DNA of 64,000 nucleotides from NCBI GenBank assembly GCA_963675665.1, contig OY776510.1, positions 4,768,001-4,832,000 on the forward strand, read 5' to 3'. The stretch is from Spirochaetia bacterium. GTDB lineage: Bacteria > Spirochaetota > Spirochaetia > UBA9216. A model generated the notes under the pieces. That model had not been told where the DNA came from. It did no database searches and saw nothing but the letters and a program-made list of their open reading frames with translations. The position numbers were made by a program, and so were the translations under genes. This document shows positions 27,476 through 43,770 of this stretch, piece by piece (position 1 is the stretch's first letter; each line of letters opens with the position of its first letter).

Positions 27476-27487
27476 TTCATTCTCCTG

Positions 27488-28552
27488 CTATAAGGTCAAT
27501 GCTTTTTTAAGCTCGACAGTTTCCGACAGGCCGTCAGCAACACCTATTTTATACGAAACCGAATAGGTCTCCCCCGCCTCAAGGTATTTCAGCCTGCCGT
27601 TTTCTCTTGCTTCCATACGCCCCTCGGGAATACAGTTTCCGGGTTCAAAAGCAGCGACATAATCCTGGCAACCCATCATTTTCCATTCGTTAAAAAATGG
27701 GAGTTCTTCAGGTGAGTAAACAAGATAGGCGCCGAAGTTCAGACTTTCATTGATAACAGCCGAATACACTTTATGTCCCTTTTCAGGCATCTCATGCAGA
27801 AAGCATTCATATTCATAACCCGGCTGAGGAGATTCCATTCTTTCGTATTCTCCGTTGCCATTGATTGCACTGTCCGTCCACGGCTTTACTTCAACAGCGC
27901 GTGTATAATAACCGGAATTCTCGCTAACTACCGGGAAACCGAAATTGACATGATAGAGAAGCATAAACGGCATTTTTTCAAATCCTGCATTTACAAATTT
28001 GTCAAAAATCTCAATTTCACTGCTGCCTGCCCTGCATTTGATTTCACGTTCCATCACCAGGTTCTCAGCATAAAGACAGGATTCCCTAACTTTTCCTTTG
28101 ACTGTATATACCGGCAGTCCTTCTTCCAGATGTTCTTCATAAAAAAAAGATTCTGCCGGAGTGTGGGATATTCGGCCGTGAATACCTAAAACATCATCAC
28201 CGTCTGTTCCCGAAGCTCCTGCCTGGGTCAAACCGCATGTAGTAAGAAGACCGCCAGAAAAAGAACGGAGAAATCCGTTTATACTGTTTTCATAATGTCC
28301 GGGGGCTACTATTCCGTTCTTGGACAACCATGCAACAGGACGGCCCCGGTATTCAGCTGTTGCTATATCCAGACTTCTGTCGGGCAGAACTGTGAAATTC
28401 AATCCGGTGCCGTTCTTAATCAGAAGCGCTCTGGAACCCCGCGCCTTTCCCTGAATATATTCAACCTCGGTTATTCCTCCGAACTGATCCGGCGAACCGA
28501 AATATTTTCTTATATCCTCATCCGTAAGATTCTTTCCGTATAAGCTCTTCAT
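27488..28552 (-). CDS. Aldose 1-epimerase-like protein (DUF4432-like)
   Basis: VLPDRSLDI, FSGGLLTTCGL, GIHGRISH, LYHVNFGFP, FEPGN. Confidence 0.8.
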   Translation of the reverse strand: MKSLYGKNLTDEDIRKYFGSPDQFGGITEVEYIQGKARGSRALLIKNGTGLNFTVLPDRSLDIATAEYRGRPVAWLSKNGIVAPGHYENSINGFLRSFSGGLLTTCGLTQAGASGTDGDDVLGIHGRISHTPAESFFYEEHLEEGLPVYTVKGKVRESCLYAENLVMEREIKCRAGSSEIEIFDKFVNAGFEKMPFMLLYHVNFGFPVVSENSGYYTRAVEVKPWTDSAINGNGEYERMESPQPGYEYECFLHEMPEKGHKVYSAVINESLNFGAYLVYSPEELPFFNEWKMMGCQDYVAAFEPGNCIPEGRMEARENGRLKYLEAGETYSVSYKIGVADGLSETVELKKALTL

Positions 28553-28554
28553 CC

Positions 28555-29529
28555 CTACTCCAACACATTCTTCAGTCTTATCTTTCTTGTCAGCATATCA
28601 ACACTTACGACCCCTACAAGAATCAGTCCTGATGCAAAAAGCTGCCAGTAGGTCGATACACTGCTGAGAATAAGAATATTATCAATTAATCCGACAAGAA
28701 GCGTTCCCATAAGCGCGCCTATTACCGTGCCTTCACCTCCGCTTAAGGAGGCCCCCCCGATGATGCAGGCGGCAATCGATTTAAGTTCAACACCCGTTCC
28801 GGCTGTAGCCATCATCGACATCATCCTGGACGTAAGAACAACCCCCGCCAGGGCCGCCAGAACTCCTGTCAGAATATATGTACAGATTCTTACAAACTTT
28901 ACATTAATCCCGGAGAGTTTAGCAGCTTCAATATTTCCCCCGACAAAATAGACCAGTCTTCCCCAGCTGAATTTTCGCATAAATTGATCAATAACTAATA
29001 CGATGGCAAGCATCAGCATGATAGGTACGGGGAACCCAAGTATCCGACCTGCTCCGAGAAAAGCAAAACTGTCGGGAAGACCATAGATAGGCATTCCCTG
29101 GGTAATTGCCAGGGCCAGGCCTCTTACCATACTCATTGTTCCAAGTGTCGCTATAAAAGGATTTATTTCCACCTGGGTAATCAATACACCGTTAATGAAT
29201 CCGATAAATGCCCCTACTATCAACGCTATTAAGATTGAAACTGAAACCGGGACTCCACTCTCCATCAGTTTTGAAAGAACAACCCCGCAGAGAGCGAGTG
29301 TTGAACCCACAGAGAGATCGAACCCGTTTCCCGCCATCACAATCATCATTCCAACTGAAATAATACCTATGCTCAGTATTCCGTATCCTATCGCCTCAAT
29401 ATTGGTAATCGAAAAGAAATATTGATTTGTAATTGAAAAGACAATAAATAAAATCAGATTTATTAAAAAGATTAATAACGCACGGGATTTAAATATTTTG
29501 GAAAAGTAATTTTTATTTATTGAGACCAT
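28555..29529 (-). CDS. Sugar ABC permease (RbsC-like), set 2
   Basis: GFDLSVGS, PFIATLG, ELKSIAACIIGG. Confidence 0.92.
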   Translation of the reverse strand: MVSINKNYFSKIFKSRALLIFLINLILFIVFSITNQYFFSITNIEAIGYGILSIGIISVGMMIVMAGNGFDLSVGSTLALCGVVLSKLMESGVPVSVSILIALIVGAFIGFINGVLITQVEINPFIATLGTMSMVRGLALAITQGMPIYGLPDSFAFLGAGRILGFPVPIMLMLAIVLVIDQFMRKFSWGRLVYFVGGNIEAAKLSGINVKFVRICTYILTGVLAALAGVVLTSRMMSMMATAGTGVELKSIAACIIGGASLSGGEGTVIGALMGTLLVGLIDNILILSSVSTYWQLFASGLILVGVVSVDMLTRKIRLKNVLE

Positions 29530-31048
29530 TTCTTTTCTCCCTGGATTTAAAATCTACTATACTTGCCATAATGCTTTCCTGAGTAACGCTATCGTCATTA
29601 TCAATCAACTGAACTGTCTTTCCGTTATCCATAACAAGGATTCTGTCGCTCATGCCTAAAACTTCCGTCATTTCGGATGATATCAGAATAATGCTTTTAC
29701 CCTGATCCGCAATATTTTGCAGATGCTGATGTATAGCCTTTTTTGCGCCTATATCTATTCCCCTGGTGGGTTCATCAACTATTAAAATATCCGGTTCAAT
29801 TGAAACTGTCTTTGCCAGAAGAATTTTCTGCTGATTTCCGCCGCTCAATGTTCCTACAAGAATTCTGCCGTTACTGGCTTTAATATCAAAGAGTTTCACA
29901 AACTCATCCACTTTTCGTTTTAAAAGATCATTCTTTACTATTCTGTTTCTGCTGTATCTGTTTACATCTATAGACAGCATATTTTCTTCAATAGAAAAAC
30001 TTAAAAAAAGGCCCAGCTTTTTTCGGTCTTCCGTCAGATATCCGATACCCAACTCCATAGCCTTTTTGGGGTTTTTTATTTTAACTTCCTTTCCATTAAG
30101 AAGAATCCTTCCTGCAGAATGAGGAAGCGCTCCGAAAATTGCAAGAGCAAGCTCTGTTCTTCCTGCGCCTATCAATCCTGAAATTCCCAGTATCTCTCCC
30201 TTTCGTAATTTAAAATTTATATTTGAAAAACATTCTCTGTTGGAAAAGTTCTCCAGCTCAAGAACTGCTTCATCTTTTATCTGTATCTTTTTTTCAGGAA
30301 ACATTGTTCCGAGCTCTCTGCCGACCATCAAACCTGCAATTTTATCTTCCCGCATCTCTTCCTTCTGCAGTTTATCTATGAATTCACCGTCTCTCAGAAT
30401 GACGACCTGATCACAGAGTTCGACTATTTCACTGATTTCATGAGAAATATAGAGTATTGAGATGCCTTCATTTTTTAATTGTCCCAGTAATTTGAATAAT
30501 TTTTGAACAACCGGAATACTGAGAGGCCCGGTCGGTTCGTCTAAAATCATCAATTTGGGATTATAAGCAATAGCCCGAAGAATTTCGATCTGTTCACGTT
30601 CGGCAAGAGATAAATCTCCGACAACTGCAGCCGGATCCAGATTAAGTTCGAAAAGTTCAAGTAATTTAGCCGCTTCTCTGGTCTGCTTTTCAAAGTCTAT
30701 TTTATGCAGAGTCATTCGCCTGTTTTTATTCTTAAGATCCTTTACAAAAAGGTTTTCCCGAACGGACAGATTCTCACAAAGACTCAGTTCCTGATGTACT
30801 ACGGAAATTCCTTTATTAAGGGCATCATTGGGCGAACTGAATTTCTGCTCCACGCCGTTTAATATAATTTCACCCTCATCGATATCTATTGCTCCCCCGA
30901 TTGTCTTGATCAGGGTACTTTTACCAGCACCGTTCTCTCCAACAATACCGATAATCTCTCCTTTGTTTACTGAAAAAGAAACTCCTTTAAGCGCTTTTAC
31001 TCCGGGAAAGGTTTTTTTTATATTTTTCAGTGTCAATAATGATTCCAC
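29513..31048 (-). CDS. Sugar ABC ATP-binding protein, set 2
   Basis: GENGAGKST, LSGGNQQK, DEPTRG; GTG 31048 after AAGGAG preferred because the ORF-track ATG 31084 lies in a hairpin loop. Confidence 0.92.
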   Translation of the reverse strand: MESLLTLKNIKKTFPGVKALKGVSFSVNKGEIIGIVGENGAGKSTLIKTIGGAIDIDEGEIILNGVEQKFSSPNDALNKGISVVHQELSLCENLSVRENLFVKDLKNKNRRMTLHKIDFEKQTREAAKLLELFELNLDPAAVVGDLSLAEREQIEILRAIAYNPKLMILDEPTGPLSIPVVQKLFKLLGQLKNEGISILYISHEISEIVELCDQVVILRDGEFIDKLQKEEMREDKIAGLMVGRELGTMFPEKKIQIKDEAVLELENFSNRECFSNINFKLRKGEILGISGLIGAGRTELALAIFGALPHSAGRILLNGKEVKIKNPKKAMELGIGYLTEDRKKLGLFLSFSIEENMLSIDVNRYSRNRIVKNDLLKRKVDEFVKLFDIKASNGRILVGTLSGGNQQKILLAKTVSIEPDILIVDEPTRGIDIGAKKAIHQHLQNIADQGKSIILISSEMTEVLGMSDRILVMDNGKTVQLIDNDDSVTQESIMASIVDFKSREKRNGLNK

Positions 31049-31067
31049 CGACAATCTCCTTAAATCG

Positions 31068-31098
31068 GGAGAGGAAACTGACATTCGGTTTCCTCTCC
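31068..31098 (-). terminator. Stem-loop 3' of SBP 2 (stabiliser or attenuator)
   Basis: GGAGAGGAAAC-N9-GTTTCCTCTCC. Confidence 0.55.
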
Positions 31099-31108
31099 TT
31101 TCCGGTTA

Positions 31109-32137
31109 TTACTTTTCTTCGAAATTCCTGTAGTTGGTTTTATCAATTATCATAATTCCGGTATCAGTAAAATTGGGCAATGTATTGACTCCGTTTTTCT
31201 GTACAGCATCAACATCCCAGCCCTTTACAAGCTCAAGAGTATCGTGGTTATAATCATACAGCATTTTTAAACCGTAATATGACATGGCAAATGTCCTCTG
31301 GACCATTGTAGAATGAATAACCCCTTCTTCAATCAGCTTCAGCGTTTGAGGCATGGGATCAAAACCTACAAGAGTTATCTTTCCTGTTTTATTGAGGTTC
31401 TTTACGGCTGCACCCATTCCTATAGGGCTTACTCCGTCGGTGCCGAATATACCGGAAATATCGGGATTTGCGATGATCATTTCTGAATTGACCTTCGTTG
31501 CAATTTCAGTATCAGCCTTGTCGTCTACAACAGCCACAACCTCCATCCCGGGATATTTGCTGTCAATCCGGTCAATAAAACCGCGGGCTCTAGCTTCGCA
31601 GGCTTCAAAACCTACAAGATTAGAGATGCCGACTTTGCCTTTTCCGTTTAATAATTCAGCCATCAAATCTGCAGCTTTCTGGCCGGCAGCATAACCATCA
31701 GTGCCGATATAGGAAAGCCGTTTACTGTCTGGCGAATCAGTATCGACAGCTATAACCGGGATGCCGGCGGCTATTGCTTTATTTATTACGGGAACAAATG
31801 CCGGCCCGTTGAGCGGACCAACCAAAAATCCGGCCGGGTTCTTTGATATTTCCTGTTCCATTATTGCAATCTGCTGTTCAACCGAATCGCCCATAACACC
31901 GGTAAAAAATGTCTGAACACCGAGTTCGGCTGCCGCTGCTTCAAATCCGGCTTTATGGACCTGCCAGTATTGTATTCCGATATGCGGAGCAATAAGAACA
32001 TACCGTTCATCGGAAACCTTCTTCTCGACGGCTTTATTATCAACCTGCTGCTGAGCTGCAGGTTCATCCTTCGTGCAGCCTGAAAAAATTAATGCAATAG
32101 TCATTAAAATCAATAAGCTTAAAAATATTTTCTTCAT
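31109..32137 (-). CDS. Sugar ABC substrate-binding lipoprotein, set 2
   Basis: Lipobox IFSGC; periplasmic binding protein type 1 (YIGTDGY, VGFD); ATG 32137 after AGGAG. Confidence 0.88.
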   Translation of the reverse strand: MKKIFLSLLILMTIALIFSGCTKDEPAAQQQVDNKAVEKKVSDERYVLIAPHIGIQYWQVHKAGFEAAAAELGVQTFFTGVMGDSVEQQIAIMEQEISKNPAGFLVGPLNGPAFVPVINKAIAAGIPVIAVDTDSPDSKRLSYIGTDGYAAGQKAADLMAELLNGKGKVGISNLVGFEACEARARGFIDRIDSKYPGMEVVAVVDDKADTEIATKVNSEMIIANPDISGIFGTDGVSPIGMGAAVKNLNKTGKITLVGFDPMPQTLKLIEEGVIHSTMVQRTFAMSYYGLKMLYDYNHDTLELVKGWDVDAVQKNGVNTLPNFTDTGIMIIDKTNYRNFEEK

Positions 32138-32199
32138 AATAAAATTCTCCTGTTTCAATTGCTGGAGTAAAAAATCTCCCTGAATTATAACCCTTGAAA

Positions 32200-33180
32200 T
32201 TAATCCCAGGGAAGTTTTGTTCCTCTGATTTCTTCAATATTCTCCATTGTGGTGACGGAGCCTGAAGAATCAAGAATTATCATATTATCCACGCTTCCGC
32301 CGTTAATCAGAGTCAGCAGACTCTGCACTCCTACATAACCCATATCGTAAAAACTGTATCCTACCAACATCTGGGTCATACCGGACTCCAGAAAATCAAG
32401 CATCGGATAAAAATTGTCGATACTTACCACCAGATTTCCGGCATCAACAAAATCTTTAACGGTACCCAGGGATTCAGGCGGAGCAAAAAACGGCCAGCCG
32501 CCGATAAAAAACCATCCGTCAAGATTCGGATTCGCATTGGTAAAATCATCAATTACCTGTACTGCTTTATTTATGTCGTCTTCACAGGTCTGTATGGATA
32601 CAATTTCAACATTGGAACCTTTTATTCCGTCTTTAAACCCTCGTATTCTTTCTTCAAGATTGAAGGCTCCGAGAATACCGGTAAGAAGAGCTGTTTCAAC
32701 CTTTCCCGGTTTTTCTGAAGCAAGCTCCGAATATAACTTTCCTCCGAGCTTGCCAACATCATAGTTATCGATTCCTACATAAAATGCTCTGTCGCTGTCC
32801 GGCGCATCTGAATCAAAAGTCGCCACATAGATGCCGTCAGCCATTGCCTTTGCAATGACATCATTCAGAGCCGACGGGTCATTACAGCTAATCAGCATTC
32901 CGTCAACACCCTTTTGAATAAGCCCCTCAAGCACCTGGACCTGCTCTGCTGCATCACTTTTAAAACCTGCAGTCCAGATCAGCTCTATACCGAGCTCTTC
33001 AGCGGCTTTTTCAGCGCCTGCCTTGGTATCAAGGAACACAGGATTATCCATTGCCTTGGGGACAACCGCGATGGTTACCTTGCCGTTTTCAGCGCCTTTT
33101 CCTGCAGCATCCTGCTGACCGCCGGCAAAAAGAACGCCAGCCGCTATCAGCATCAGCCCGATTAGTAAGATTTTTTTCAT
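32200..33180 (-). CDS. Sugar ABC substrate-binding protein, set 1
   Basis: LFAGGQQD N-terminus; VPKAMDNPVF, TFDSD, YVGIDNY; ATG 33180 after AGGAGG. Confidence 0.88.
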   Translation of the reverse strand: MKKILLIGLMLIAAGVLFAGGQQDAAGKGAENGKVTIAVVPKAMDNPVFLDTKAGAEKAAEELGIELIWTAGFKSDAAEQVQVLEGLIQKGVDGMLISCNDPSALNDVIAKAMADGIYVATFDSDAPDSDRAFYVGIDNYDVGKLGGKLYSELASEKPGKVETALLTGILGAFNLEERIRGFKDGIKGSNVEIVSIQTCEDDINKAVQVIDDFTNANPNLDGWFFIGGWPFFAPPESLGTVKDFVDAGNLVVSIDNFYPMLDFLESGMTQMLVGYSFYDMGYVGVQSLLTLINGGSVDNMIILDSSGSVTTMENIEEIRGTKLPWD

Positions 33181-33230
33181 AATCTCTCCTCCTGAAAATA
33201 TTTGTTCCATAAATAATTATGGTTAACCCC

Positions 33231-34199
33231 TTATTTTGTTTTACGCTTGCTTGCCTGATCTCCGGCAATTGCGATTAAGATGACAATCCCGATTACGGTC
33301 TGTTGCCAGTACGGGGATACGTTAAGCAATATCAGTCCGTTTCTCAGCACCCCCATGATTGCCGCCCCGAGCATCGCCCCTACCACGGTTCCCTTTCCGC
33401 CCGACAGGCTTGCCCCGCCTATAATTACCGCAGCTATGACATCGAGTTCATAGCCTGTTCCTGATGTAGACTGGGCAACACCCAGCCTCGAAGTTGTAAT
33501 AATTCCCGACATTGCGGACAGAAACCCGCACAGAGAATAGATGACCACCTTAATTTTATTTACCTCTATACCGGAAATCTCAGCCGCCTCTTCATTGCCT
33601 CCTACAGCAAAAACCCGTCTCCCGAAAACAGTGCGTTCCAGAAGAAAAGAGAAGATAACAACAATCAACACCATATAAACAACCGGAAGCGGGATAATCC
33701 AGAGATAACCCTGGCCGATCGTATTGAAGCCGGACGGCGTCCGTATCGGATATCCGGTTGTAAGGGCATAAGCAAGGCCCCTTGCAACACTAAGCATACC
33801 AAGTGTCGCTATAAATGGCGGAATCCTGAGCAGTGTGATAAGAAATCCGTTCGCCATACCGAAAGCTGTTCCGGCGGCAAGCCCGATAAGAATCGAAACC
33901 GCGGGATTGAATCCTATTTTCTGGATAAAGAAAGCTGTCAGCAGACCGGTAAACCCGAATATTGAGCCGACAGATAAATCCACTCCGGCACTTATGATTA
34001 CAAAACACTGACCGACCGCAATGATCGCAATATACGAAAAAGCCCTCATGACCGAAAAGAGATTCTTCTGTGTCAGGAAATTGTCTGTAGCCAACGTCAG
34101 AAACAGCGACAACAGAACCAGTATCATCAATACGCTGAAATTCTTCATTTTCCCAAGATTTTTCAACTTAATCTTTTTATTTAATAATTCTTCAACCAT
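33231..34199 (-). CDS. Sugar ABC permease (RbsC-like), set 1
   Basis: GVDLSVGS, PPFIATLG, YELDVIAAVIIGG. Confidence 0.92.
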   Translation of the reverse strand: MVEELLNKKIKLKNLGKMKNFSVLMILVLLSLFLTLATDNFLTQKNLFSVMRAFSYIAIIAVGQCFVIISAGVDLSVGSIFGFTGLLTAFFIQKIGFNPAVSILIGLAAGTAFGMANGFLITLLRIPPFIATLGMLSVARGLAYALTTGYPIRTPSGFNTIGQGYLWIIPLPVVYMVLIVVIFSFLLERTVFGRRVFAVGGNEEAAEISGIEVNKIKVVIYSLCGFLSAMSGIITTSRLGVAQSTSGTGYELDVIAAVIIGGASLSGGKGTVVGAMLGAAIMGVLRNGLILLNVSPYWQQTVIGIVILIAIAGDQASKRKTK

Positions 34200-34228
34200 T
34201 CATGAACTCCATTATTTATTTAAAATTA

Positions 34229-35725
34229 TCAGCAGGAACCGGAAGAAAGCGCGGTACTCATAATCATCTCCTGAGTTGCTTCAGAACCTTCAAGAGTACC
34301 CTTCCAGACTCCTTCGTGCATCACCACAATACGGTCCGACATTGACAGAATTTCAACCAGTTCCGAACTAATCATGATGATCGAAACTCCCTGTTTAGAC
34401 AGCTCATTGATAATATGATAAATTTCCTTTTTGGCTCCGACATCAATGCCGCGGGTAGGTTCATCAAGAATCAATATTTTAGGATTTGTCGACAGCCATT
34501 TTGCCAGCACGACCTTCTGCTGATTTCCGCCGCTGAGACTTGAAACCTCCGAATCTTCGTCCGGAGTCTTCAACTTCAGTTTTTCAATAAAATTAATTGA
34601 AATTTCTTTTTCCGCTTTACGATTAATTATTCCGCAGCTGCTTATTCTATTGAGATTTGCCATCGAAATGTTTTCCCTGACGGACAGGTCAAGAATCAGC
34701 CCCTGTTTCTTTCGGTCTTCCGGAACAAATCCGATGTTGTGAGCTATAGCCTTTGAAGGATGTTTTATTCTGACTTCACCACCTTCAAGGAAGATTCTGC
34801 CTCCGGTAATTTTATCCAGCCCGAAGAGAGCCCTCATCACCTCAGATCTGCCCGCGCCGACAAGGCCGGCAAAACCAAGAACTTCACCCTTTCGAAGGGA
34901 AAAACTTACATTCCTGACTCCATTATCCGTACTGAGATTTTCAACCCTCAGAACCTCCTTGCCTGCAGGATTCCTCGTTTTCTCAAACATAGTCTCAAGT
35001 TTTCGCCCGACCATCAGGGTAATTATTTCCTCTTCACTTGTCTGGTCCAGCCTGAGGGTATCAATATGCTTTCCGTCCCGAAGAATTTGAACACGATCGC
35101 AAAGACTGAAGATTTCTTCCATTTTATGCGAGACATAAACAATTGCTACACCGTCTCTTTTAAGTTCTTCTATAATTGCAAAAAGAATTTCAGCTTCAGC
35201 ATCCGTTAGACTTGATGTAGGTTCATCCATTATGATAATTTCGGACTCAAACGAAAGAGCTTTTGCAATCTCAACCATCTGTTTTTGCGAAACAGAAAGT
35301 TCATCGATCAGGGTATCCGGTTTAATTTTCAACCCGACTTTTTCAAGCAGAACAGAGGCGGCTTCCCGCATTCCGGTTTCATTTATTATTCCTGCTGCCG
35401 ACGTTATTTCTCTTCCTATAAAGATATTATCTGCAATACTCATGTTCGGAAGAAGATTAAGCTCCTGATGAATAATGCTTATTCCCAGTTCTTCCGCCTG
35501 TTTCGGATGCTGAATATCTATTTTTTCTCCGTTGTACTCCACATACCCGCTGTCTTTATGGATTATTCCGCCGATTATTTTAATCAATGTTGATTTTCCG
35601 GCGCCGTTTTCACCAATAAGTCCCAGTACCTCACCTTTTTTCAGTGAGAAATCCACATTTCCCAGGGCCTGTACCCCTGGAAATGATTTTGAAATATTCT
35701 TCATCATATAGAATTCAGACATCAT
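34229..35725 (-). CDS. Sugar ABC ATP-binding protein (RbsA-like), set 1
   Basis: GENGAGKST, LSGGNQQK; start moved to ATG 35725/35722 because the ORF-track start (35776) lies upstream of the sigma-54 promoter. Confidence 0.92.
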   Translation of the reverse strand: MMSEFYMMKNISKSFPGVQALGNVDFSLKKGEVLGLIGENGAGKSTLIKIIGGIIHKDSGYVEYNGEKIDIQHPKQAEELGISIIHQELNLLPNMSIADNIFIGREITSAAGIINETGMREAASVLLEKVGLKIKPDTLIDELSVSQKQMVEIAKALSFESEIIIMDEPTSSLTDAEAEILFAIIEELKRDGVAIVYVSHKMEEIFSLCDRVQILRDGKHIDTLRLDQTSEEEIITLMVGRKLETMFEKTRNPAGKEVLRVENLSTDNGVRNVSFSLRKGEVLGFAGLVGAGRSEVMRALFGLDKITGGRIFLEGGEVRIKHPSKAIAHNIGFVPEDRKKQGLILDLSVRENISMANLNRISSCGIINRKAEKEISINFIEKLKLKTPDEDSEVSSLSGGNQQKVVLAKWLSTNPKILILDEPTRGIDVGAKKEIYHIINELSKQGVSIIMISSELVEILSMSDRIVVMHEGVWKGTLEGSEATQEMIMSTALSSGSC

Positions 35726-35743
35726 ATACCTCATGCCACTAAA

Positions 35744-35760
35744 CGCAAGAAAGATGCCAA
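35744..35760 (-). promoter_or_regulatory. Sigma-54 (-24/-12) promoter of the double-ABC/AOR operon
   Basis: Minus strand TTGGCATCTTTCTTGCG (GG-N10-GC), facing a divergent NtrC-family gene. Confidence 0.8.
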
Positions 35761-35830
35761 AAAACTGTGAATTCAAATATTTTATAATTGCTTATGATAT
35801 ATGGAAATAAATTGAACAGAAAAAAAACTG

Positions 35831-35869
35831 TTGACAAACCCTTGCACATTATGTATAGTTATTGCACAT
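35831..35869 (+). promoter_or_regulatory. Sigma-70 promoter of the response regulator, overlapped by two TTGCACAT boxes (putative enhancer)
   Basis: TTGACA-17-TATAGT; TTGCACAT at 35842-35849 and 35862-35869, about 110-130 bp from the sigma-54 start. Confidence 0.6.
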
Positions 35870-35882
35870 ATTGAGGTTTACT

Positions 35883-37208
35883 ATGTGTGCAGAAATATTG
35901 ATTGTCGACGATAATATAAATGTATCGAAAAGTCTAAGTGATAATTTTGAGCATTTCGGATTTAAGTGTGATACAACCGAAAACGGACTTGATGCTATTA
36001 ATGCGGTACTTTCATATAATTACAGGCTTGTTCTTCTTGACCTTAAACTGGGTTCAGAAAACGGTATAGAAATTCTTAAAAAAATAAAATCGATAAACGA
36101 AATTCTGCCTGTAATTCTTATAACCGGTTTCGGAACTATAGACACAGCCATCGAAGCAATGAAAGGCGGAGCATATGACTATATAGAAAAACCCATCAAC
36201 TTCGACAAGTTGCTGGGAATTTCGAAAAATGCAATAGAAATATATAACCTTAAAATTGAAAACAGAAAATTAACATCTCAGCTGGAAAATTCCCAACTCT
36301 CAACAAAATCAACAAAAATGATGCAGGTTATTGAGAATGCAATCATCCTGGCAAAATCTCCGCTTCCGATTCTTCTTCTGGGCGAAAGCGGTTCAGGAAA
36401 GGATGTTTTTGCCGAACTGATACATAATAACTCGGATCGTAAAGCCCTCCAGATGGAAAAAATAAATTCTGCGGCATTTCCTGAAACCCTGCTGGATAAC
36501 GAACTTTTCGGACATGAAAAAGATGCATATACAGGAGCAAACAGTCTCTTTAAAGGAGTTTTTGAGCGGGCTCATAACAGCACACTTTTTCTCGATGAAA
36601 TAGGAGACATGCCACTGTCAATTCAGGCAAAAATTCTTCGGGCCATCCAGAATCAGGAAATAAGGAGACTCGGGGGGTCTGTAAATATAAAGATAAATAC
36701 AAGATTTATAGCCGCAACCAATAAAAATATAGATGAATTGATGGAAAAAAATCTTTTCAGAGAGGACTTATTTTACAGACTTAATTCCGGTATTCTTAAA
36801 ATCCCGCCGCTGCGAGAGCATACTGAAGATATCCCCGCACTGTGTAAATGTTTTATAACGGAACATTGCAAACAGACTAACTCGGATCCGAGAATAGTAT
36901 CTGAAAATGTATATGACCGGTTTATGAATTACAGCTGGCCCGGCAATATCCGGGAACTTAAAAGCACAATAGTGTACGCGCTTACCATATCGAGAAATAA
37001 TAAAATTGAACTGGACGATCTTCCTGAATACATCACAAGCAGAAATAAGAAAATAATCTCATCAGCCGCTCCGGCAAATAACTCTGAAAAGCAGCAGATT
37101 ATTGAAGCTCTTCAAAAGGCAAAATATAATAAAACGAAAGCAGCAGAACTTCTGAACATAAGCCGGCGGACTTTATATAACAAGATGGATTCCTATGGCA
37201 TCGATTAA
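35883..37208 (+). CDS. Sigma-54-dependent response regulator (REC-AAA+-Fis HTH)
   Basis: ILIVDD, LLDLKL, GESGSGKD, DAYTGA, FLDEIG, FREDLFYRL, NKTKAAELLNISRRTLY; ATG 35883 after GAGG. Confidence 0.93.
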   Translation: MCAEILIVDDNINVSKSLSDNFEHFGFKCDTTENGLDAINAVLSYNYRLVLLDLKLGSENGIEILKKIKSINEILPVILITGFGTIDTAIEAMKGGAYDYIEKPINFDKLLGISKNAIEIYNLKIENRKLTSQLENSQLSTKSTKMMQVIENAIILAKSPLPILLLGESGSGKDVFAELIHNNSDRKALQMEKINSAAFPETLLDNELFGHEKDAYTGANSLFKGVFERAHNSTLFLDEIGDMPLSIQAKILRAIQNQEIRRLGGSVNIKINTRFIAATNKNIDELMEKNLFREDLFYRLNSGILKIPPLREHTEDIPALCKCFITEHCKQTNSDPRIVSENVYDRFMNYSWPGNIRELKSTIVYALTISRNNKIELDDLPEYITSRNKKIISSAAPANNSEKQQIIEALQKAKYNKTKAAELLNISRRTLYNKMDSYGID

Positions 37209-39018
37209 TGCTTTGCTCACACTTAATGACATTTCTCTCTACAATGAAAATTTCGAAATTTTAAGCAAAATCAATCTCTCGCTCTTCCCGTCTGAAATTC
37301 ATTGTATTCTAGGAAAATACGGCAGCGGAAAATCAGAGCTGGCAAGAGTTCTGCGGGGCAGATTACGACCCGGAAAAGGTTTTATAGAAATTGATAATAA
37401 AAAATTCTCCTGGCTGAAGATAAAAGATTCCATAAAACTGGGGATTGCAGTTTTTCAACATGAAGATCTTTTCCAGGAAAATATAAAAGCCAAGGAATAT
37501 CTGTATGATAAATATTATTCCCATAATCTTACAATTCTCTCGGTTAAAAAAATAGACTCCTATTATTCACAGGTTGCAGAGAAATATTCTCTTACCTTCA
37601 GCGGCAACTGTGAACTCGGAGAGCTTACCATCTCGGAAAAATACTATCTCGGAATAGTAAGAATACTTGAGAAAAATCCAAAGATAATAGTTCTTGATGA
37701 AATTCTGGATAAACTGGACAAACGGTTTTTAATACCGGTAATGGAGTTACTTGAAGAAAAAAAAAGGCAGGGCTCAAACATCCTGATAATAACCAATAAT
37801 ATTGATGAGGTCTATAATATTGCAGAGCGGGTTTCAATCATTAAAAACGGAAGAATAATTTATACAGATTTTGTAAAGGAAATCGAAAAGATAAATCTTA
37901 TCAAACTTGCTTATGCTGAAATATCGCAAACCTATCCGGAAGATGAAGAAGATTTTTATCATCTTCTTAAATATAACGAAGCGATTCTCCTGGAACTGCC
38001 TTTAAATCTTATTATTATTGACAAAAACATGAAAGTAAAAATAGCCAATAGGAATGCCTGCGAGTTCTACAGACTTAAGAATACGCACATGGAATCAGTG
38101 ATGCTGGAAGATCTCTTTAAAGGGAATCAGCACGTCTTCAAGGTCTTAAAAAAGGCATTTCAGCAAAGAGAAGCAAAGGTTATATACAATTCTGTTCTTT
38201 CCTTCAATAATTCAAAACTGATAACCAATATAAAAACCTACCCTGTATTCGACGGTCCGGATTTCATTGGTTTTATAATTGCCCTTGAAGACGTAACTGT
38301 ACAGGAGAATATCCGCAAACAGCTTTACATGTCTGAGAACCTGTCTTCCATCGGACTCTTATCTGCAGGCGTTGCACATGAAATTAACAATCCCCTTGAA
38401 ATAATCTCAAACTGCACAAGTTATCTAAAGTACAATATAGACGATCCGGTACTTAATGATAAAATCAGAACCATTGAAGGGGAAATAGAGTCGATATCCA
38501 GTATTATAAGTAATTTAGTCGGCATAAGTCATAACAAGAGAGAGAAATTGGAACATTTTAATCTATTCAAGCTCATCGACACGCTCCAAACCTTATTATC
38601 GAAAAGTCTGTCGACAAAAAGGATAACGCTTCATCTGAGAAAGAGTAGTACCGAGATAGGTGTTTTTGCAGACATTACAGAGATAAAACAAATATTCCTA
38701 AACCTGATCAAGAACAGTATTGAATCAATAGGCTCAGACGGTAATATCTATATAGATCTTTTAAAAATCGACAGTAATAATATTCAAATATCCATAACCG
38801 ATGACGGAAACGGCATAGACGAGAATATGGTCAACAACCTTTTTCTTCCGTTTTATTCAACCAAATATGATGTTGGCAAGAATCAGGGACTTGGTCTGTA
38901 TATCATCTATGGAATAATAAAAAAGTATAACGGCGAAATAGAAGTTAAAAACCTGGATAAAGGCTGCTGTTTTACAATAAGAATGCCTATATTATTTGAT
39001 CTGAATAAAAATCTCTAA
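37195..39018 (+). CDS. Soluble histidine kinase with an N-terminal degenerate ABC-ATPase domain and a PAS-like domain
   Basis: aa 1-~240 resemble the N-half of RbsA (GKYGSGKS, IIVLDE); then PAS-like (IIDKNMKVKIAN...EDVT), H-box AHEINNPL, NLIKNS, DDGNGI, GLGL; no transmembrane stretch. Confidence 0.85.
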   Translation: MASINALLTLNDISLYNENFEILSKINLSLFPSEIHCILGKYGSGKSELARVLRGRLRPGKGFIEIDNKKFSWLKIKDSIKLGIAVFQHEDLFQENIKAKEYLYDKYYSHNLTILSVKKIDSYYSQVAEKYSLTFSGNCELGELTISEKYYLGIVRILEKNPKIIVLDEILDKLDKRFLIPVMELLEEKKRQGSNILIITNNIDEVYNIAERVSIIKNGRIIYTDFVKEIEKINLIKLAYAEISQTYPEDEEDFYHLLKYNEAILLELPLNLIIIDKNMKVKIANRNACEFYRLKNTHMESVMLEDLFKGNQHVFKVLKKAFQQREAKVIYNSVLSFNNSKLITNIKTYPVFDGPDFIGFIIALEDVTVQENIRKQLYMSENLSSIGLLSAGVAHEINNPLEIISNCTSYLKYNIDDPVLNDKIRTIEGEIESISSIISNLVGISHNKREKLEHFNLFKLIDTLQTLLSKSLSTKRITLHLRKSSTEIGVFADITEIKQIFLNLIKNSIESIGSDGNIYIDLLKIDSNNIQISITDDGNGIDENMVNNLFLPFYSTKYDVGKNQGLGLYIIYGIIKKYNGEIEVKNLDKGCCFTIRMPILFDLNKNL

Positions 39019-39103: not shown

Positions 39104-39967
39104 ATGACAAACAAACTTGCTGCATCCAGGCTAAAACCGATCCTGCTTGTTCTTACTGCTACACTTCTCTTCAGCATAGGGGCACCGATAGGGAAAATTA
39201 CATCAAGCTCGCCGTTTGTACTTACCTTTTTCAGATGTCTTACCGGACTTATTGTTTTCGCCATAGTACATATTATCAAAGGCCGCGGTCCGCTGTTTAT
39301 AGTCAAATCTGAATTTATAATCGGTGGAGCTCTCTATGCTTCAACTTCAATTTGCTTCTATATAGCATTGAATTACACAACAGCGGCAAACGTTACGGTA
39401 CTGGGAAATACATCTCCCTTCTTTCTGGCTATTTTGGGATTCCTGTTCCTTCATGAAAAACCTTTAAACCGGGACTGGATTATTTTGCTGTTAATAATGT
39501 CCGGAATTTTCCTGTGTTTCAAGAGCGGGTTATCATTCAAGGGAGCAAGAGGCGATCTTCTGTCGCTGCTGGCCGGATTTCTTTTTTCAATTTTAGTTGT
39601 AATATTAAAGAAATGTGATTCGGAAAATACCATGCAACCTCTTATCTGGGGAAGCCTGATTGCATCCATAGCAACTCTACCTGCACTATTCAGTCCGGGA
39701 GCTATCATCCTGAAGAATATTCCTTTTTTTATAATTCTCGGTATCTTTCAGATGGCTATACCGTTTTTTCTTTATGCGAAAGGGCAACAAAGTATGGGAG
39801 CTATGGAAGCATCACTTTTCAAACTTCTTGAACCGGTCGCAGCTACAATCTGGACCGCTTTACTTGTAGGCGAGATTCCGACACTTTATTCAATAATCGG
39901 CGGAGTCCTGGTGATTGCCGCTCTTTTTTGCAAAACCTTTCTTGAGTATCGCAACAGCTTAAAATAA
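39104..39967 (+). CDS. DMT/EamA-family transporter
   Basis: About 10 hydrophobic segments; FFR, TSPFF...LHEK, LLEPV. Confidence 0.85.
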   Translation: MTNKLAASRLKPILLVLTATLLFSIGAPIGKITSSSPFVLTFFRCLTGLIVFAIVHIIKGRGPLFIVKSEFIIGGALYASTSICFYIALNYTTAANVTVLGNTSPFFLAILGFLFLHEKPLNRDWIILLLIMSGIFLCFKSGLSFKGARGDLLSLLAGFLFSILVVILKKCDSENTMQPLIWGSLIASIATLPALFSPGAIILKNIPFFIILGIFQMAIPFFLYAKGQQSMGAMEASLFKLLEPVAATIWTALLVGEIPTLYSIIGGVLVIAALFCKTFLEYRNSLK

Positions 39968-39970
39968 AAT

Positions 39971-40034
39971 TTGACAGCACAATTATCCTGTGTTACTATG
40001 TTTTCTATCAGAAACTTGGTTTCTAATTAGAAAC
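39971..40034 (+). promoter_or_regulatory. Sigma-70 promoter of TRAP-kduID with an IclR/KdgR-like operator
   Basis: TTGACA-17-TACTAT; GTTTTCTATCAGAAAC (40000-40015) and perfect palindrome GTTTCTAATTAGAAAC (40019-40034); their junction reads GAAAC-TTG-GTTTC. Confidence 0.65.
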
Positions 40035-40048
40035 AATGGAGGAAAAAA

Positions 40049-41065: not shown

Positions 41066-41083
41066 GATTATATTCGATAAAAC

Positions 41084-41106
41084 ACCGGGGCCTGTTAAGC
41101 CCCGGT
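41084..41106 (+). terminator. Stem-loop after dctP
   Basis: ACCGGGGC-N7-GCCCCGGT. Confidence 0.55.
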
Positions 41107-41134
41107 AATCTTTTAGAGGGAGAATTCCAATACT

Positions 41135-42912: not shown

Positions 42913-42929
42913 CTTGAAGGAGTTTTATA

Positions 42930-43760: not shown

Positions 43761-43770
43761 GGAGTAAAAA

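What the first reader, a model, noticed from the sequence alone, without database searches (positions are those of the whole stretch)
37195..39018. Histidine kinase whose input domain is a degenerate sugar-ABC ATPase: possible sensing through the transporter
Seen: the first ~240 aa look like the first half of an RbsA/MglA ATPase. Walker A (GKYGSGKS) and Walker B (IIVLDE) are kept, but the signature region reads LTISEK, DEPT becomes DEIL and the H-loop His becomes Asn (IITNN). This is fused in frame to PAS-like, HisKA and HATPase domains, with no membrane helix. It is co-encoded with an NtrC-like regulator facing a sugar ABC operon. Known: kinases that sense via transporters (BceS/BceAB, PhoR/PstB-PhoU, DctB or LytS types with SBPs) use separate polypeptides. 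Inference: the pseudo-NBD docks on a permease coupling helix, so SBP-permease conformational changes switch the kinase. I do not know of this architecture being characterised.
Basis: partly seen in the sequence, partly recalled or inferred. Interest (0 to 1): 0.88.

Follow-up and report, generated by a model that had tools for sequence, protein, structure and literature searches.

The report
Sensor kinase with transporter-ATPase input domain
A soluble bacterial sensor kinase carries, in place of a normal sensor, a partly disabled copy of the ATP-binding domain of a sugar ABC importer; it belongs to a large family for which I found no published study, and it probably senses sugar by plugging into the importer it controls.

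Summary
ORF 37195..39018 (+) encodes a 607-aa protein with no membrane helix. It consists of a CUT2 NBD1-like ABC domain, a linker, a PAS-like fold, then HisKA and HATPase_c. Walker A and Walker B are kept. The signature, the 'PT' after Walker B, the H-loop His and the Q-loop position are changed.

It is neither a chimera nor a singleton:
- All 120 best relatives listed share the architecture.
- The genome holds 8 paralogues.
- All 8 follow an NtrC-type regulator, and 7 of 8 abut a CUT2 sugar ABC operon.
- In other genomes and metagenomes, 37 of 38 loci with full context have CUT2 genes within three genes.
- A sigma-54-like promoter heads the facing operon here, and rpoN is present.

The mechanism remains inferred. 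Permease docking is supported by synteny, by family-wide retention of the Q-loop segment alongside a remodelled NBD-dimer face, by lone permease genes beside some relatives, and by a weak complex prediction (0.49, best control 0.00). Against it:
- Nearly every neighbouring transporter has its own full ATPase.
- The kinase's NBD shows no special likeness to its neighbour's.
- Two loci lack a transporter.

This scan has already found the same family on other DNA, with the same reading. Eight literature searches found no description of it.

The parts
37195..39018 (+). NBD-PAS-histidine kinase gene (607 aa, soluble)
   Evidence: ORF and translation; Pfam and NCBIfam; AlphaFold2 model with mean pLDDT 83.2; no TM segment
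37195..37914 (+). Residues 1-240: CUT2 NBD1-like ABC domain. Walker A 37312-37335, signature-region LTISEK 37624-37641, Walker B 37684-37701, H-loop region IITNN 37786-37800.
   Evidence: ABC_tran E 1.6e-14; aligns to the first halves of YtfR, AlsA, AraG and RbsA; pLDDT mostly above 90; Foldseek TM up to 0.86 to LptB-type NBDs; motif census
37915..37977 (+). Residues 241-261: linker, low confidence in the model. It is flanked by strongly conserved family-specific segments (IEKINLIKLAY upstream, FYHLLKYNEAIL downstream). It is homologous in position to the NBD1-NBD2 linker of CUT2 ATPases, where 'MVGR' is replaced by 'AYTQ'-type residues.
   Evidence: pLDDT below 50 at 243-261; conservation; alignment with 9 neighbouring ATPases and with 70 genome ATPases
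37978..38292 (+). Residues 262-366: PAS-like fold ending in a conserved ED(V/I)T strand that leads into the DHp helix
   Evidence: AlphaFold2 secondary structure; Foldseek top hits are the LOV-HK chimeras, YF1 (4gcz) and ThkA; Pfam PAS_4/PAS_9 in relatives; no Pfam PAS hit in this protein itself
38296..38988 (+). Residues 368-598: DHp (HisKA, phospho-acceptor His395 at 38377-38379) and catalytic ATP-binding domain, with N, G1, F and G2 boxes intact
   Evidence: Pfam; invariant H395, N503, N507, D536, G538, G540, F553, G565, G567 in 149 family members
35862..37208 (+). NtrC-type response regulator (REC + sigma-54 AAA+ + HTH_8). The likely true start is the ATG near 35883. Its sigma-54 contact loop reads DAYTGA.
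   Evidence: Pfam; sequence; GAFTGA-loop variants in paralogues and relatives
35831..35859 (+). Sigma-70-like promoter (TTGACA-17-TATAGT, 11 of 12) upstream of the regulator-kinase operon
   Evidence: Consensus scan. This is a consensus match only; 44 sites were found in the region against 33.4 expected.
35745..35759 (-). Sigma-54-type -24/-12 element TGGCATCTTTCTTGC heading the facing ABC operon. The predicted transcript start is near 35733, just upstream of GAGG and ATG at 35725/35722.
   Evidence: Equivalent sites scoring at least 9 of 11 lie on the operon strand at paralogue loci HK2 (11/11), HK4, HK5 (10/11) and HK8. Genome-wide there are 320 such sites (0.062 per kb). rpoN is present.
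35842..35891 (.). Candidate activator-binding sites: TTGCACAT twice, 20 nt apart (35842-35849, 35862-35869), plus inverted ATGTGTGCA (35883-35891). They lie about 85-130 nt upstream of the -24 element.
   Evidence: Repeat search. Their function is inferred from position only.
25535..35776 (-). Facing gene string with gaps of 41 nt or less. It comprises a two-NBD ATPase (34229-35776), permease (33231-34199), SBP (32200-33210), SBP (31109-32158), a second two-NBD ATPase (29513-31084), permease (28555-29529), DUF4432 (27488-28552) and aldehyde:ferredoxin oxidoreductase (25535-27475). It is probably one sigma-54-driven operon.
   Evidence: ORFs; Pfam; no terminator-like site between genes

Best explanation
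The gene encodes the sensor kinase of a sigma-54-dependent two-component system that switches on the facing CUT2 sugar-importer/catabolic operon.

Shown: it is a soluble kinase with a competent HisKA/HATPase core. Its N-terminal input is a domain derived from NBD1 of a CUT2 (RbsA/MglA-type) ABC ATPase and is followed by a PAS-like transducer. It is co-transcribed with an NtrC-type activator, and the facing operon carries a -24/-12 promoter.

Inferred: the kinase homodimer presents two NBD1-like domains to the cytoplasmic coupling sites of a CUT2 permease dimer. It sits either in place of the transport ATPase on a sub-population of permeases or on a dedicated permease. Binding of sugar-loaded binding protein to the permease changes how the two NBDs are held. 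ATP, bound through the retained Walker A/B and hydrolysed slowly or not at all in this copy, acts as glue. The movement passes through the conserved NBD C-terminal linker into the N-terminal helix of the PAS fold and down the coiled coil to the DHp. This sets kinase against phosphatase activity towards the regulator.
For: Identity and regulon:
- Pfam and NCBIfam identify the domains.
- Kinase catalytic boxes are invariant in 149 relatives.
- rpoN is present.
- A sigma-54-like site lies at 35745-35759 on the operon strand, with equivalents scoring at least 9/11 at 4 further paralogue loci. The genome background is 0.062 per kb.

Family:
- The best 120 relatives listed all carry PF00005 + PF02518 at 90-100% coverage.
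- 492 representatives at 50% clustering score E<=1e-30.

Linkage to transporters:
- In this genome, 8 of 8 paralogues follow an NtrC-type regulator.
- 7 of 8 abut a CUT2 operon, although only 70 such ATPase genes exist in 5.15 Mb.
- In other genomes, 12 of 13 loci with three genes visible on both sides have a CUT2 ATPase or permease within three genes. In metagenome contigs the figure is 25 of 25.

Catalysis is not the conserved function:
- Among the 8 paralogues the H-loop His survives in 3.
- The Q-loop Gln is missing in 2.
- The Walker A Lys is Arg in 1.
- All 8 keep Walker B DE.

Pattern of constraint, compared with the 70 canonical NBD1s of this genome:
- The family keeps Walker A, Q-loop Gln (0.92), the following L..V.EN.F segment (0.60-0.87), Walker B and the H-loop.
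- It has replaced the NBD-NBD interface features family-wide: signature Gln 0.01, Pro-Thr after Walker B 0.01 and 0.00, Glu178 0.00.
- The post-Q-loop segment is the TMD-contact region in solved importers such as MalK (recalled, not tested here).

Lone CUT2 permease genes with no ABC ATPase in the same string lie next to the kinase in L151, L154, L178 and L179 (Pfam) and in L180.

Complex prediction of permease 33231..34199 with kinase residues 1-245:
- Verdict: weak support. Score 0.49 (runs 0.45, 0.61, 0.49), best of 3 controls 0.00.
- That mark was reached by 116 of 157 solved complexes and 2 of 215 mismatched pairs.
- At 0.60 or under, only 18 of those 157 solved complexes reached it, as did both mismatches that passed.
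- The runs agree in at least 90% of contacts, and the partner's pLDDT is at least 81.
- No CUT2 permease is solved by sequence match (0 hits). General likeness to solved ABC transporters may still contribute.

The model places a conserved helix (253-267) at the start of the PAS fold. The PAS-kinase half resembles LOV-histidine kinases.
Against: - Nearly all neighbouring transporters encode their own complete two-NBD ATPase: all 7 here, 21 of 25 metagenome loci and 12 of 13 genome loci. The permease's docking sites therefore already have an owner, and the model needs competition or a separate permease pool.
- The kinase NBDs show no special similarity to NBD1 of their own neighbour. The neighbour ranks 8-48 of 70, so there is no sign of shared docking determinants.
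- Paralogue HK5 sits beside two alcohol dehydrogenases and a glycyl-radical enzyme. Locus L142 sits beside a LacI-type regulator and arabinose catabolic genes. Neither has a transporter beside it.
- Co-divergence tests did not single out the NBD. With 7 loci the PAS tracked the transporter better than the NBD did. With 17 loci all domains tracked it (r 0.3-0.6). After controlling for the kinase core, both NBD-SBP (r 0.34) and PAS-permease (r 0.28) remained.
- In this particular protein the post-Q-loop segment is diverged (ENIKAKEYLY against the family's FTVAENLF).
- The cell encodes 94 CUT2 permease ORFs, so a docking sensor faces a cross-talk problem.
- The complex prediction is only weak.
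Confidence: 0.5

Rival explanations
1. The PAS fold is the real sensor. It binds the imported sugar or a first metabolite in the cytoplasm. The NBD is an accessory module that contributes ATP-dependent dimerisation or gating, or merely tethers the kinase near its transporter.
For: - PAS is one of the most variable parts among the 7 paralogue loci tested. Mean normalised similarity is 0.22, against 0.25 for the NBD and 0.32 for the kinase core. In that set it tracked permease, SBP and ATPase similarity better than the NBD did (r 0.78, 0.64, 0.67).
- With 17 loci a PAS-permease partial correlation remains (r 0.28, p 0.002).
- This reading explains loci with no adjacent transporter (HK5, L142).
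- It also explains why transporters keep their own ATPase.
Against: - It gives no reason for a transporter-derived NBD to be kept for so long, with its Q-loop segment conserved and its dimer face remodelled.
- The NBD is the better-conserved of the two input domains in the 17-locus set (0.31 against 0.24) and also retains residual correlation with the SBP (r 0.34).
- The 7-locus result did not hold up with more loci.
- The PAS keeps the transducer-type conserved strands found across the whole family. No ligand-binding motif was identified.
Confidence: 0.25
2. The NBD is a free-standing nucleotide sensor. ATP or ADP occupancy drives NBD dimerisation and gates the kinase according to energy state, without contact to any transporter.
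For: - Walker A GxxGxGK[ST] is present in 148 of 149 family members, Walker B Asp in 148, Glu in 136 and H-loop His in 133.
- The domain folds as a complete NBD.
Against: - The signature motif needed for an ATP sandwich dimer is degenerate in all 149; none has GG.
- Paralogues in this genome have lost the Walker A Lys (HK6), the Q-loop Gln (HK4, HK6) or the H-loop His (5 of 8).
- Eight energy sensors, each wired to a different sugar operon, make little sense.
- The model does not explain the near-obligate synteny with CUT2 operons.
Confidence: 0.08
3. The NBD contacts the transporter's ATPase subunit rather than the permease. It would read or inhibit its cycle, in the manner of MalK-MalT cross-talk.
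For: A full ATPase is almost always encoded next door. The NBD-NBD interface of the kinase domain is the part that has changed most family-wide. That could reflect a new partner.
Against: - CUT2 ATPases carry both NBDs in one chain, which leaves no vacant partner site. This is an inference from the architecture.
- Lone permeases without an ATPase occur beside some kinases.
- There is no special similarity or co-ranking with the neighbouring ATPase.
Confidence: 0.07

Closest known systems
Bce-type modules (BceS/BceR with the BceAB ABC transporter, Firmicutes)
   Same: A histidine kinase has no ligand-binding domain of its own and reads an ABC transporter. It then induces that transporter's operon (PMC3023708 and bioRxiv 10.1101/2020.02.28.969956; abstracts seen in the search listing).
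   Different: BceS is a membrane kinase that contacts the FtsX-type permease BceB through its transmembrane helices, and the two are separate polypeptides. Here the kinase is soluble. The proposed contact is a covalently fused NBD. The transporter is a binding-protein-dependent CUT2 sugar importer, and the output is a sigma-54 activator.
CUT2 ABC ATPases (RbsA, MglA, AraG, XylG, YtfR, AlsA)
   Same: Residues 5-250 align to their first NBD, including the inter-NBD linker position. All 8 paralogues hit the NBD1 half best.
   Different: Only one NBD is present. Scores are far below the equivalog cut-offs (107 against 850 for YtfR). The signature Gln, Pro-Thr after Walker B, the D-loop region and 'MVGR' are replaced family-wide. 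In this copy the H-loop His and the Q-loop position are also changed.
Transporter-domain sensor kinases of the CrbS/CbrA type (SLC5 domain fused to a histidine kinase)
   Same: A transporter-derived domain is covalently fused to a histidine kinase as its input (PMC5715377; abstract seen in the search listing).
   Different: There the fused part is the membrane-embedded symporter domain itself. Here it is the soluble motor domain of an ABC system, which would need a separate membrane partner.
CUT2-type binding proteins that signal to kinases in the periplasm (ChvE-VirA, LuxP-LuxQ, TorT-TorS), and MalK-MalT or PstB/PhoU-PhoR cross-talk
   Same: Components of binding-protein-dependent ABC systems are reused to carry sugar or solute information to a transcription system. 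This is recalled from established knowledge; I read no paper on it here.
   Different: In those systems either the binding protein contacts a periplasmic kinase domain, or an intact transport ATPase sequesters a regulator. None has an NBD built into the kinase.
PAS-HisKA kinases of the AtoS/NtrB type and LOV-HK YF1
   Same: The C-terminal 350 residues align to AtoS (E 7.6e-58). The model superposes on the LOV-HK chimeras and on YF1 (4gcz) and ThkA. The partner is an NtrC-type regulator.
   Different: The AtoS score is 196 against a cut-off of 646, so it is not an AtoS equivalog. There are no membrane or HAMP parts. An NBD precedes the PAS.

Membership tests
ABC transporter nucleotide-binding domain (Pfam ABC_tran) | Profile score above the curated cut-off | tested here: met
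   55.1 bits against 25, E 1.6e-14, residues 23-169
ABC transporter nucleotide-binding domain (Pfam ABC_tran) | Walker A GxxGxGK[ST] and Walker B hhhhDE | tested here: met
   GKYGSGKS at 40-47 and IIVLDE at 164-169
ABC transporter nucleotide-binding domain (Pfam ABC_tran) | Signature motif (LSGGQ-type, or the LS..Q.. form of CUT2 NBD1) | tested here: not met
   The protein reads LTISEK. The family consensus is L-x-L-S-[DE]-[RQK] with no GG in 149 of 149. The CUT2 NBD1 Gln (0.86 in 70 ATPases) is kept in 0.01.
ABC transporter nucleotide-binding domain (Pfam ABC_tran) | Q-loop Gln and H-loop His | tested here: not met
   In this protein the family's Gln column holds His (with Gln one residue earlier) and the H-loop His is Asn. 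The wider family keeps Gln in 137 of 149 and His in 133 of 149.
CUT2 two-NBD sugar ABC ATPase (RbsA/MglA/YtfR equivalogs) | Two fused NBDs of about 500 aa, scoring above the equivalog cut-off | tested here: not met
   Only the NBD1 half is present. Best score is 107.1 against a cut-off of 850.
HisKA-type sensor histidine kinase | H-box His in a DHp domain, plus N, G1, F and G2 boxes in HATPase_c | tested here: met
   HisKA 29.0 against 26.9; HATPase_c 71 against 26.4. H395, N503, N507, D536, G538, G540, F553, G565 and G567 are invariant in 149 sequences.
PAS domain | PAS alpha/beta fold between the input and the DHp | tested here: inconclusive
   No Pfam PAS hit in this protein at E<=1. PAS_4/PAS_9 are annotated in many relatives and in paralogue HK2. 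The AlphaFold2 model shows the fold at 262-366, and the Foldseek top hits are PAS/LOV kinases.
NtrB/NtrC-type sigma-54 two-component system | Regulator with REC + sigma-54 AAA+ + HTH_8; a sigma-54 gene; a -24/-12 promoter at the target | tested here: met
   Pfam for the regulator; rpoN E 3.8e-57; TGGCAT-N5-TTGC at 35745-35759 on the operon strand. The GAFTGA loop reads DAYTGA, a variant whose effect I cannot judge.
Bce-type transporter-sensing module | Intramembrane-sensing kinase with two TM helices, and a BceAB (FtsX-type) transporter | tested here: not met
   There is no TM segment. The neighbouring permeases are BPD_transp_2 and come with periplasmic binding proteins. The resemblance is functional only.
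The NBD-PAS-HK family itself (unnamed) | NBD1-like domain, conserved linker (DKINLIK.AYTQ ... EFYQLLKYNEAIL), PAS, HisKA, HATPase_c, about 600 aa; NtrC-type regulator upstream | tested here: met
   34-79% identity over 90-100% of the length to the best 120 relatives. The linker residues are conserved. A regulator lies upstream in 8 of 8 paralogues, 18 of 18 genome loci and 69 of 71 metagenome loci where the upstream gene is visible.

The most novel reading that the evidence does not exclude
A sugar ABC importer has been turned into a transmembrane receptor. The kinase homodimer takes the place of the motor ATPase on a CUT2 permease dimer. The binding-protein/permease pair then acts as the extracellular sensor, and a non-hydrolysing, ATP-glued pair of NBDs converts the transporter's conformational cycle directly into kinase output. 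This would be a new class of two-component input domain, one that reads a membrane partner from the cytoplasmic side.
Probability: 0.45. Interest if true: 0.85.

Novelty: new variant of a known kind. Interest (0 to 1): 0.74.

Why it matters
Sensing through transporters is an accepted idea, but the known cases use separate proteins and the contact is hard to define. In this family the proposed contact element is built into the kinase. It is also a domain whose docking geometry on permeases is well understood, which makes the mechanism directly testable through interaction assays, nucleotide binding, domain swaps between paralogues and structure determination.

The family is large: 492 representatives at 50% clustering score E<=1e-30. 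By submitters' names it occurs in Spirochaetota, KSB3/Moduliflexus and a Spartobacteria bin. I found no study of it. This genome offers a natural experiment, with eight paralogues showing graded loss of catalytic residues, each wired to its own operon. If the docking model holds, it adds a new input-domain class to two-component signalling. It would also give synthetic biology a modular way to couple any CUT2 binding protein to gene expression.

Tried and rejected
1. First locus scan. The scan of genome contigs with the full-length alignment was swamped by generic kinases, because the probe included the H-box. Only 6 of the 80 loci held family members. A later scan of metagenome contigs with an N-terminal probe worked, after a first alignment proved too diverse for the tool.

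2. My first greedy ORF caller hid real genes behind antisense ORFs. It produced apparent 'orphan binding-protein genes' after the kinase (L001, L009) and an apparent transporter-less locus (L002). Giving priority to profile-positive ORFs removed these artefacts, and I dropped the orphan-SBP argument. My local SBP profile also matches LacI-type regulators (L142). The final counts therefore use ATPase or permease only.

3. Shared docking determinants. The adjacent ATPase ranks only 8-48 of 70 for likeness to each kinase NBD, so this gave no support.

4. Mirror-tree tests did not separate NBD-based from PAS-based specificity. They are also confounded by shared history and multiple testing.

5. 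Lead from earlier scan notes, that Chloroflexota relatives sit in operons with a permease and a binding protein but no ATPase. With this protein as query I found no match at E<=1e-38 in the 201 Chloroflexota genomes searched. The lead is therefore unverified here, not refuted.

6. Assembly chimera or singleton: rejected.

7. Membrane kinase: rejected.

8. Literature. Eight full-text searches and a term search inside the 2005 signal-transduction census (PMC1183210) found no description of the fusion. Subscription-only journals are not covered by that library.

Full report
WHAT IS THERE

ORF 37195..39018 (+) is intact and encodes 607 residues. Pfam finds three domains above their curated cut-offs:
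- ABC_tran, residues 23-169, E 1.6e-14, 55.1 bits against 25.
- HisKA, residues 388-441.
- HATPase_c, residues 493-598.

NCBIfam places residues 5-250 on the first half of two-NBD CUT2 sugar ATPases. The best match is YtfR (E 7.5e-31, profile positions 1-233 of 492), followed by AlsA, AraG, XylG and RbsA. It places residues 254-599 on AtoS-type kinases. All these scores lie far below the equivalog cut-offs.

No 19-residue window is hydrophobic enough for a membrane helix; the maximum Kyte-Doolittle mean is 1.35.

An AlphaFold2 model built on 149 relatives has mean pLDDT 83.2. It shows:
- a confident NBD (1-240);
- a low-confidence linker (243-261);
- a helix (253-267) leading into a PAS-like fold (262-366);
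- a long DHp hairpin and a catalytic domain.

By Foldseek the C-terminal half resembles LOV/PAS histidine kinases (chimeric LOV-HKs, YF1 4gcz, ThkA). The N-terminal domain resembles isolated NBDs such as LptB, with TM up to 0.86.

SURROUNDINGS

An NtrC-type regulator (REC, sigma-54 AAA+, HTH_8) ends 14 nt inside the kinase ORF. Facing it on the other strand is an uninterrupted string of genes with gaps of 41 nt or less:
- two-NBD ATPase, permease, binding protein;
- a second binding protein, a second two-NBD ATPase, a second permease;
- DUF4432 and an aldehyde:ferredoxin oxidoreductase.

The 100-nt divergent region holds three kinds of element:
- A sigma-70-like promoter faces the regulator (TTGACA-17-TATAGT).
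- On the operon strand lies a -24/-12 element, TGGCATCTTTCTTGC, at 35745-35759. It sits just upstream of GAGG and ATG.
- Two TTGCACAT copies 20 nt apart, plus an inverted copy, lie 85-130 nt upstream of the -24 element. This is where activator sites are expected. Their function is inferred from position only.

The genome encodes sigma-54. Within the window alone the promoter pattern is no more frequent than chance: 2 matches against 3.26 expected. Its weight comes from its position and from the paralogues described below.

NOT A CHIMERA, NOT A SINGLETON

The word-indexed search returned 2294 relatives at E<=1e-3 among the 7999 candidates scored. The best 120 listed all carry PF00005 and PF02518. 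They are 562-663 residues long and match over 90-100% of the query at 34-79% identity. Submitters' names point to Spirochaetaceae, Treponema, Sphaerochaetaceae, Marispirochaeta, candidate division KSB3/Moduliflexus and a Spartobacteria bin.

The exhaustive search of 50%-identity representatives found 492 with E<=1e-30, and most of the best 150 are full-length. In a sample of 251 genomes of the window's own phylum, full-length matches occurred in 12 genomes. Only five candidates per genome were scored, so copy numbers are lower bounds.

EIGHT PARALOGUES IN ONE GENOME

The window's genome is a single contig of 5,150,563 bp. It holds eight full-length copies at 29-36% identity to this one. It also holds 70 two-NBD CUT2 ATPase ORFs and 94 CUT2 permease ORFs. 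Pfam annotation of the neighbourhoods shows three things:
- All eight kinases directly follow an NtrC-type regulator.
- Seven of the eight pairs directly abut a CUT2 operon (binding protein, two-NBD ATPase, permease). Six are divergent and one lies upstream on the same strand.
- The exception, HK5, faces two zinc alcohol dehydrogenases and a glycyl-radical enzyme.

Sigma-54-type sites scoring at least 9 of 11 lie on the operon strand in the corresponding intergenic region at HK1, HK2 (11 of 11), HK4, HK5 (10 of 11) and HK8. HK3 has a site at 8 of 11, and HK6 has none at 8 or above. The genome contains 320 sites scoring at least 9, or 0.062 per kb, and 4.48 kb were scanned.

OTHER GENOMES AND METAGENOMES

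I annotated two sets of loci using local profiles built from Pfam-verified sequences. The sets were 19 kinase genes in loci from other genomes and 78 in metagenome contigs. The metagenome contigs were found with a probe restricted to the NBD and linker.

| Measure | Genome loci | Metagenome loci |
|---|---|---|
| NtrC-type regulator on the same strand, where the upstream gene is visible | 18 of 18 | 69 of 71 |
| CUT2 ATPase or permease within three genes, where three genes are visible on both sides | 12 of 13 | 25 of 25 |
| Of those full-context loci, a two-NBD-size ATPase adjacent | 12 of 13 | 21 of 25 |

The exception, L142, sits beside a LacI-type regulator and L-arabinose catabolic genes. 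These loci are not independent. Some metagenome contigs plainly come from the same organisms as genome loci; for example, L184 and L003 share contig length and gene order.

Five loci carry a lone CUT2 permease gene next to the kinase, with no ABC ATPase in that gene string. They are L151, L154, L178, L179 and L180. For the first four, Pfam shows the flanking genes to be an AraA-like isomerase, an MFS transporter or ORFs without a family.

STATE OF THE NBD

Across 149 family members:

| Feature | Count of 149 |
|---|---|
| Walker A GxxGxGK[ST] | 148 |
| Q-loop Gln | 137 |
| Walker B Asp | 148 |
| Catalytic Glu | 136 |
| H-loop His | 133 |
| GG in the signature (which reads L-x-L-S-[DE]-[RQK]) | 0 |

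The window's protein belongs to a small divergent subclade, 6 of 149 with GKYGSGKS. In this subclade the H-loop His is Asn, and the family's Gln column holds His.

Within this genome the eight paralogues show graded decay:
- The H-loop His survives in three.
- The Q-loop Gln is lost in two.
- The Walker A Lys is Arg in one.
- Walker B Asp-Glu is kept in all eight.
- The Pro-Thr that follows it in transport ATPases is lost in all eight.

Catalysis, and in one copy perhaps even nucleotide binding, is therefore not what selection preserves.

I also compared the family with the 70 canonical NBD1s of the same genome. The family retains:
- Walker A;
- the Q-loop Gln (0.92);
- the following L..V.EN.F segment (0.60-0.87);
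- Walker B and the H-loop.

It has replaced, family-wide:
- the signature-region Gln (0.86 in ATPases, 0.01 here);
- Pro170 and Thr171 (0.96 and 0.89, down to 0.01 and 0.00);
- Glu178 (0.94 down to 0.00);
- the inter-NBD linker 'MVGR', now 'AYTQ'.

So the face that meets the partner NBD has been rebuilt. The segment that contacts the permease's coupling helix in solved importers is kept. That contact is my recollection of the MalK work and was not tested here.

MECHANISM

What is shown:
- The protein is a soluble, catalytically competent kinase with an NBD1-derived input.
- It is paired with a sigma-54 activator.
- It lies beside, and almost certainly controls, a CUT2 sugar importer/catabolic operon.

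What is inferred is how it senses. My preferred reading (0.5) is as follows. The kinase dimer docks its two NBDs on a CUT2 permease dimer. Most adjacent operons encode one permease gene, hence a homodimer. Ligand-dependent movements of the binding-protein/permease pair change how the NBDs are held. The change then travels through the conserved linker into the PAS N-terminal helix and the DHp.

The one complex prediction allowed paired permease 33231..34199 with kinase residues 1-245:
- It gave weak support. The score was 0.49 (runs 0.45, 0.61, 0.49) and the best of 3 controls was 0.00.
- That mark was reached by 116 of 157 solved complexes and 2 of 215 mismatched pairs.
- At 0.60 or under, only 18 of those 157 solved complexes reached it, as did both mismatches that passed.
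- The runs agree in at least 90% of contacts, and the partner's pLDDT is at least 81.
- No contacts were released.

No CUT2 permease has a solved relative by sequence (0 hits). Even so, general likeness to solved ABC transporters may contribute to the score.

EVIDENCE AGAINST DOCKING

- The neighbouring transporters keep their own ATPase.
- The kinase NBDs are no closer to their neighbour's NBD1 than to the other 69; the neighbour ranks 8-48 of 70.
- HK5 and L142 lack an adjacent transporter.
- This copy's own post-Q-loop segment is diverged.
- The cell has 94 candidate permeases to discriminate among.

Co-divergence tests did not settle NBD against PAS:
- With seven loci, PAS tracked the transporter best.
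- With 17 loci, all domains and the regulator tracked it (r 0.3-0.6).
- After removing the kinase-core signal, both NBD-SBP (r 0.34) and PAS-permease (r 0.28) persisted, while the regulator did not.

This says only that the input half of the kinase co-diverges with the transporter more than the output half does.

The main rival (0.25) is that the PAS binds the imported sugar and the NBD is an accessory. A free nucleotide sensor (0.08) fits poorly with the decay of the ATP-site residues and with eight copies each wired to a different operon. Contact with the ATPase subunit (0.07) was not tested.

COMPARISON WITH WHAT IS KNOWN

In logic the system is closest to Bce-type modules, in which a kinase without a sensor of its own reads an ABC transporter. 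It fails their defining features, because the kinase has no membrane helices and the transporter is not FtsX-type. It also recalls CrbS-type kinases, where a transporter domain is fused to the kinase, except that there the fused part is the membrane domain. For these I saw only the abstracts in the search listing. ChvE-VirA, LuxP-LuxQ, TorT-TorS, MalK-MalT and PhoU-PhoR are recalled comparisons.

Eight full-text searches found no paper on an NBD-kinase fusion. A term search in the 2005 census of signalling proteins found nothing either. Subscription-only literature was not searchable.

EARLIER NOTES OF THIS SCAN

The same family, with the same reading, has been reported from several other genomes. 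I re-tested the architecture, the synteny and the sigma-54 link independently here, and they hold.

Two notes describe Chloroflexota relatives whose operons have a permease and a binding protein but no ATPase. That prompted my search for ATPase-less arrangements, which found the lone permeases listed above. With this protein as query I found no match at E<=1e-38 in the 201 Chloroflexota genomes searched, so the lead itself stays unverified.

VERDICT

This is a real, conserved and apparently unstudied kinase family with a transporter-derived input domain. The regulatory wiring is well supported. The sensing mechanism is a good but unproven hypothesis. I class it as a new variant of a known kind (sensing through transporters) and score interest at 0.74.

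Noticed in passing
whole genome G000 (window = C1:4768001-4832000): There is an extreme expansion of CUT2 sugar ABC systems: 70 two-NBD ATPase ORFs and 94 BPD_transp_2 permease ORFs in 5.15 Mb. Only 8 are linked to an NBD-kinase.
   Followed up: partly
G000:C1:4312120-4319993 (locus L092): Paralogue HK5 and its regulator face a sigma-54-like site (10 of 11) followed by two zinc alcohol dehydrogenases and a PFL-like glycyl-radical enzyme, with no ABC transporter nearby. Its NBD keeps the most canonical ATP-site motifs but has a 12-residue deletion between Walker A and the Q-loop.
   Followed up: partly
window 35862-37208 and paralogue regulators: The sigma-54 contact loop of the regulators is often GAYTGA or GSYTGA rather than GAFTGA. 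In the window's regulator it reads DAYTGA, and several relatives have GAFTDA.
   Followed up: partly
window 25535-28552 (-): A DUF4432 protein and a tungsten-type aldehyde:ferredoxin oxidoreductase close the same gene string as the two sugar transporters. This suggests an unusual sugar or aldehyde catabolic route. DUF4432-like and URO-D-like genes recur beside other family loci.
   Followed up: no
window 39104-44532 (+): Downstream of the kinase lie an EamA transporter, a TRAP transporter (DctP, DctQ, DctM), a KduI/IolB-family protein and a short-chain dehydrogenase. The set looks like hexuronate or inositol catabolism.
   Followed up: no
L151:4951-7526 and L154:10323-14539: A lone CUT2 permease gene ends a catabolic gene string (AraA-like isomerase; in L151 also SDR, RpiB-like, FGGY kinase and ADH). 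It converges on the 3' end of the kinase gene, with no ATPase or binding-protein gene in that string.
   Followed up: partly
G000:C1:1947649-1950742 (locus L091): Selenocysteine machinery (SelA, SelB) lies a few genes from paralogue HK4.
   Followed up: no
L009:4962-11812: Two regulator-kinase pairs of this family sit back to back on one contig of a Spirochaetota bin, each flanked by its own CUT2 operon.
   Followed up: partly
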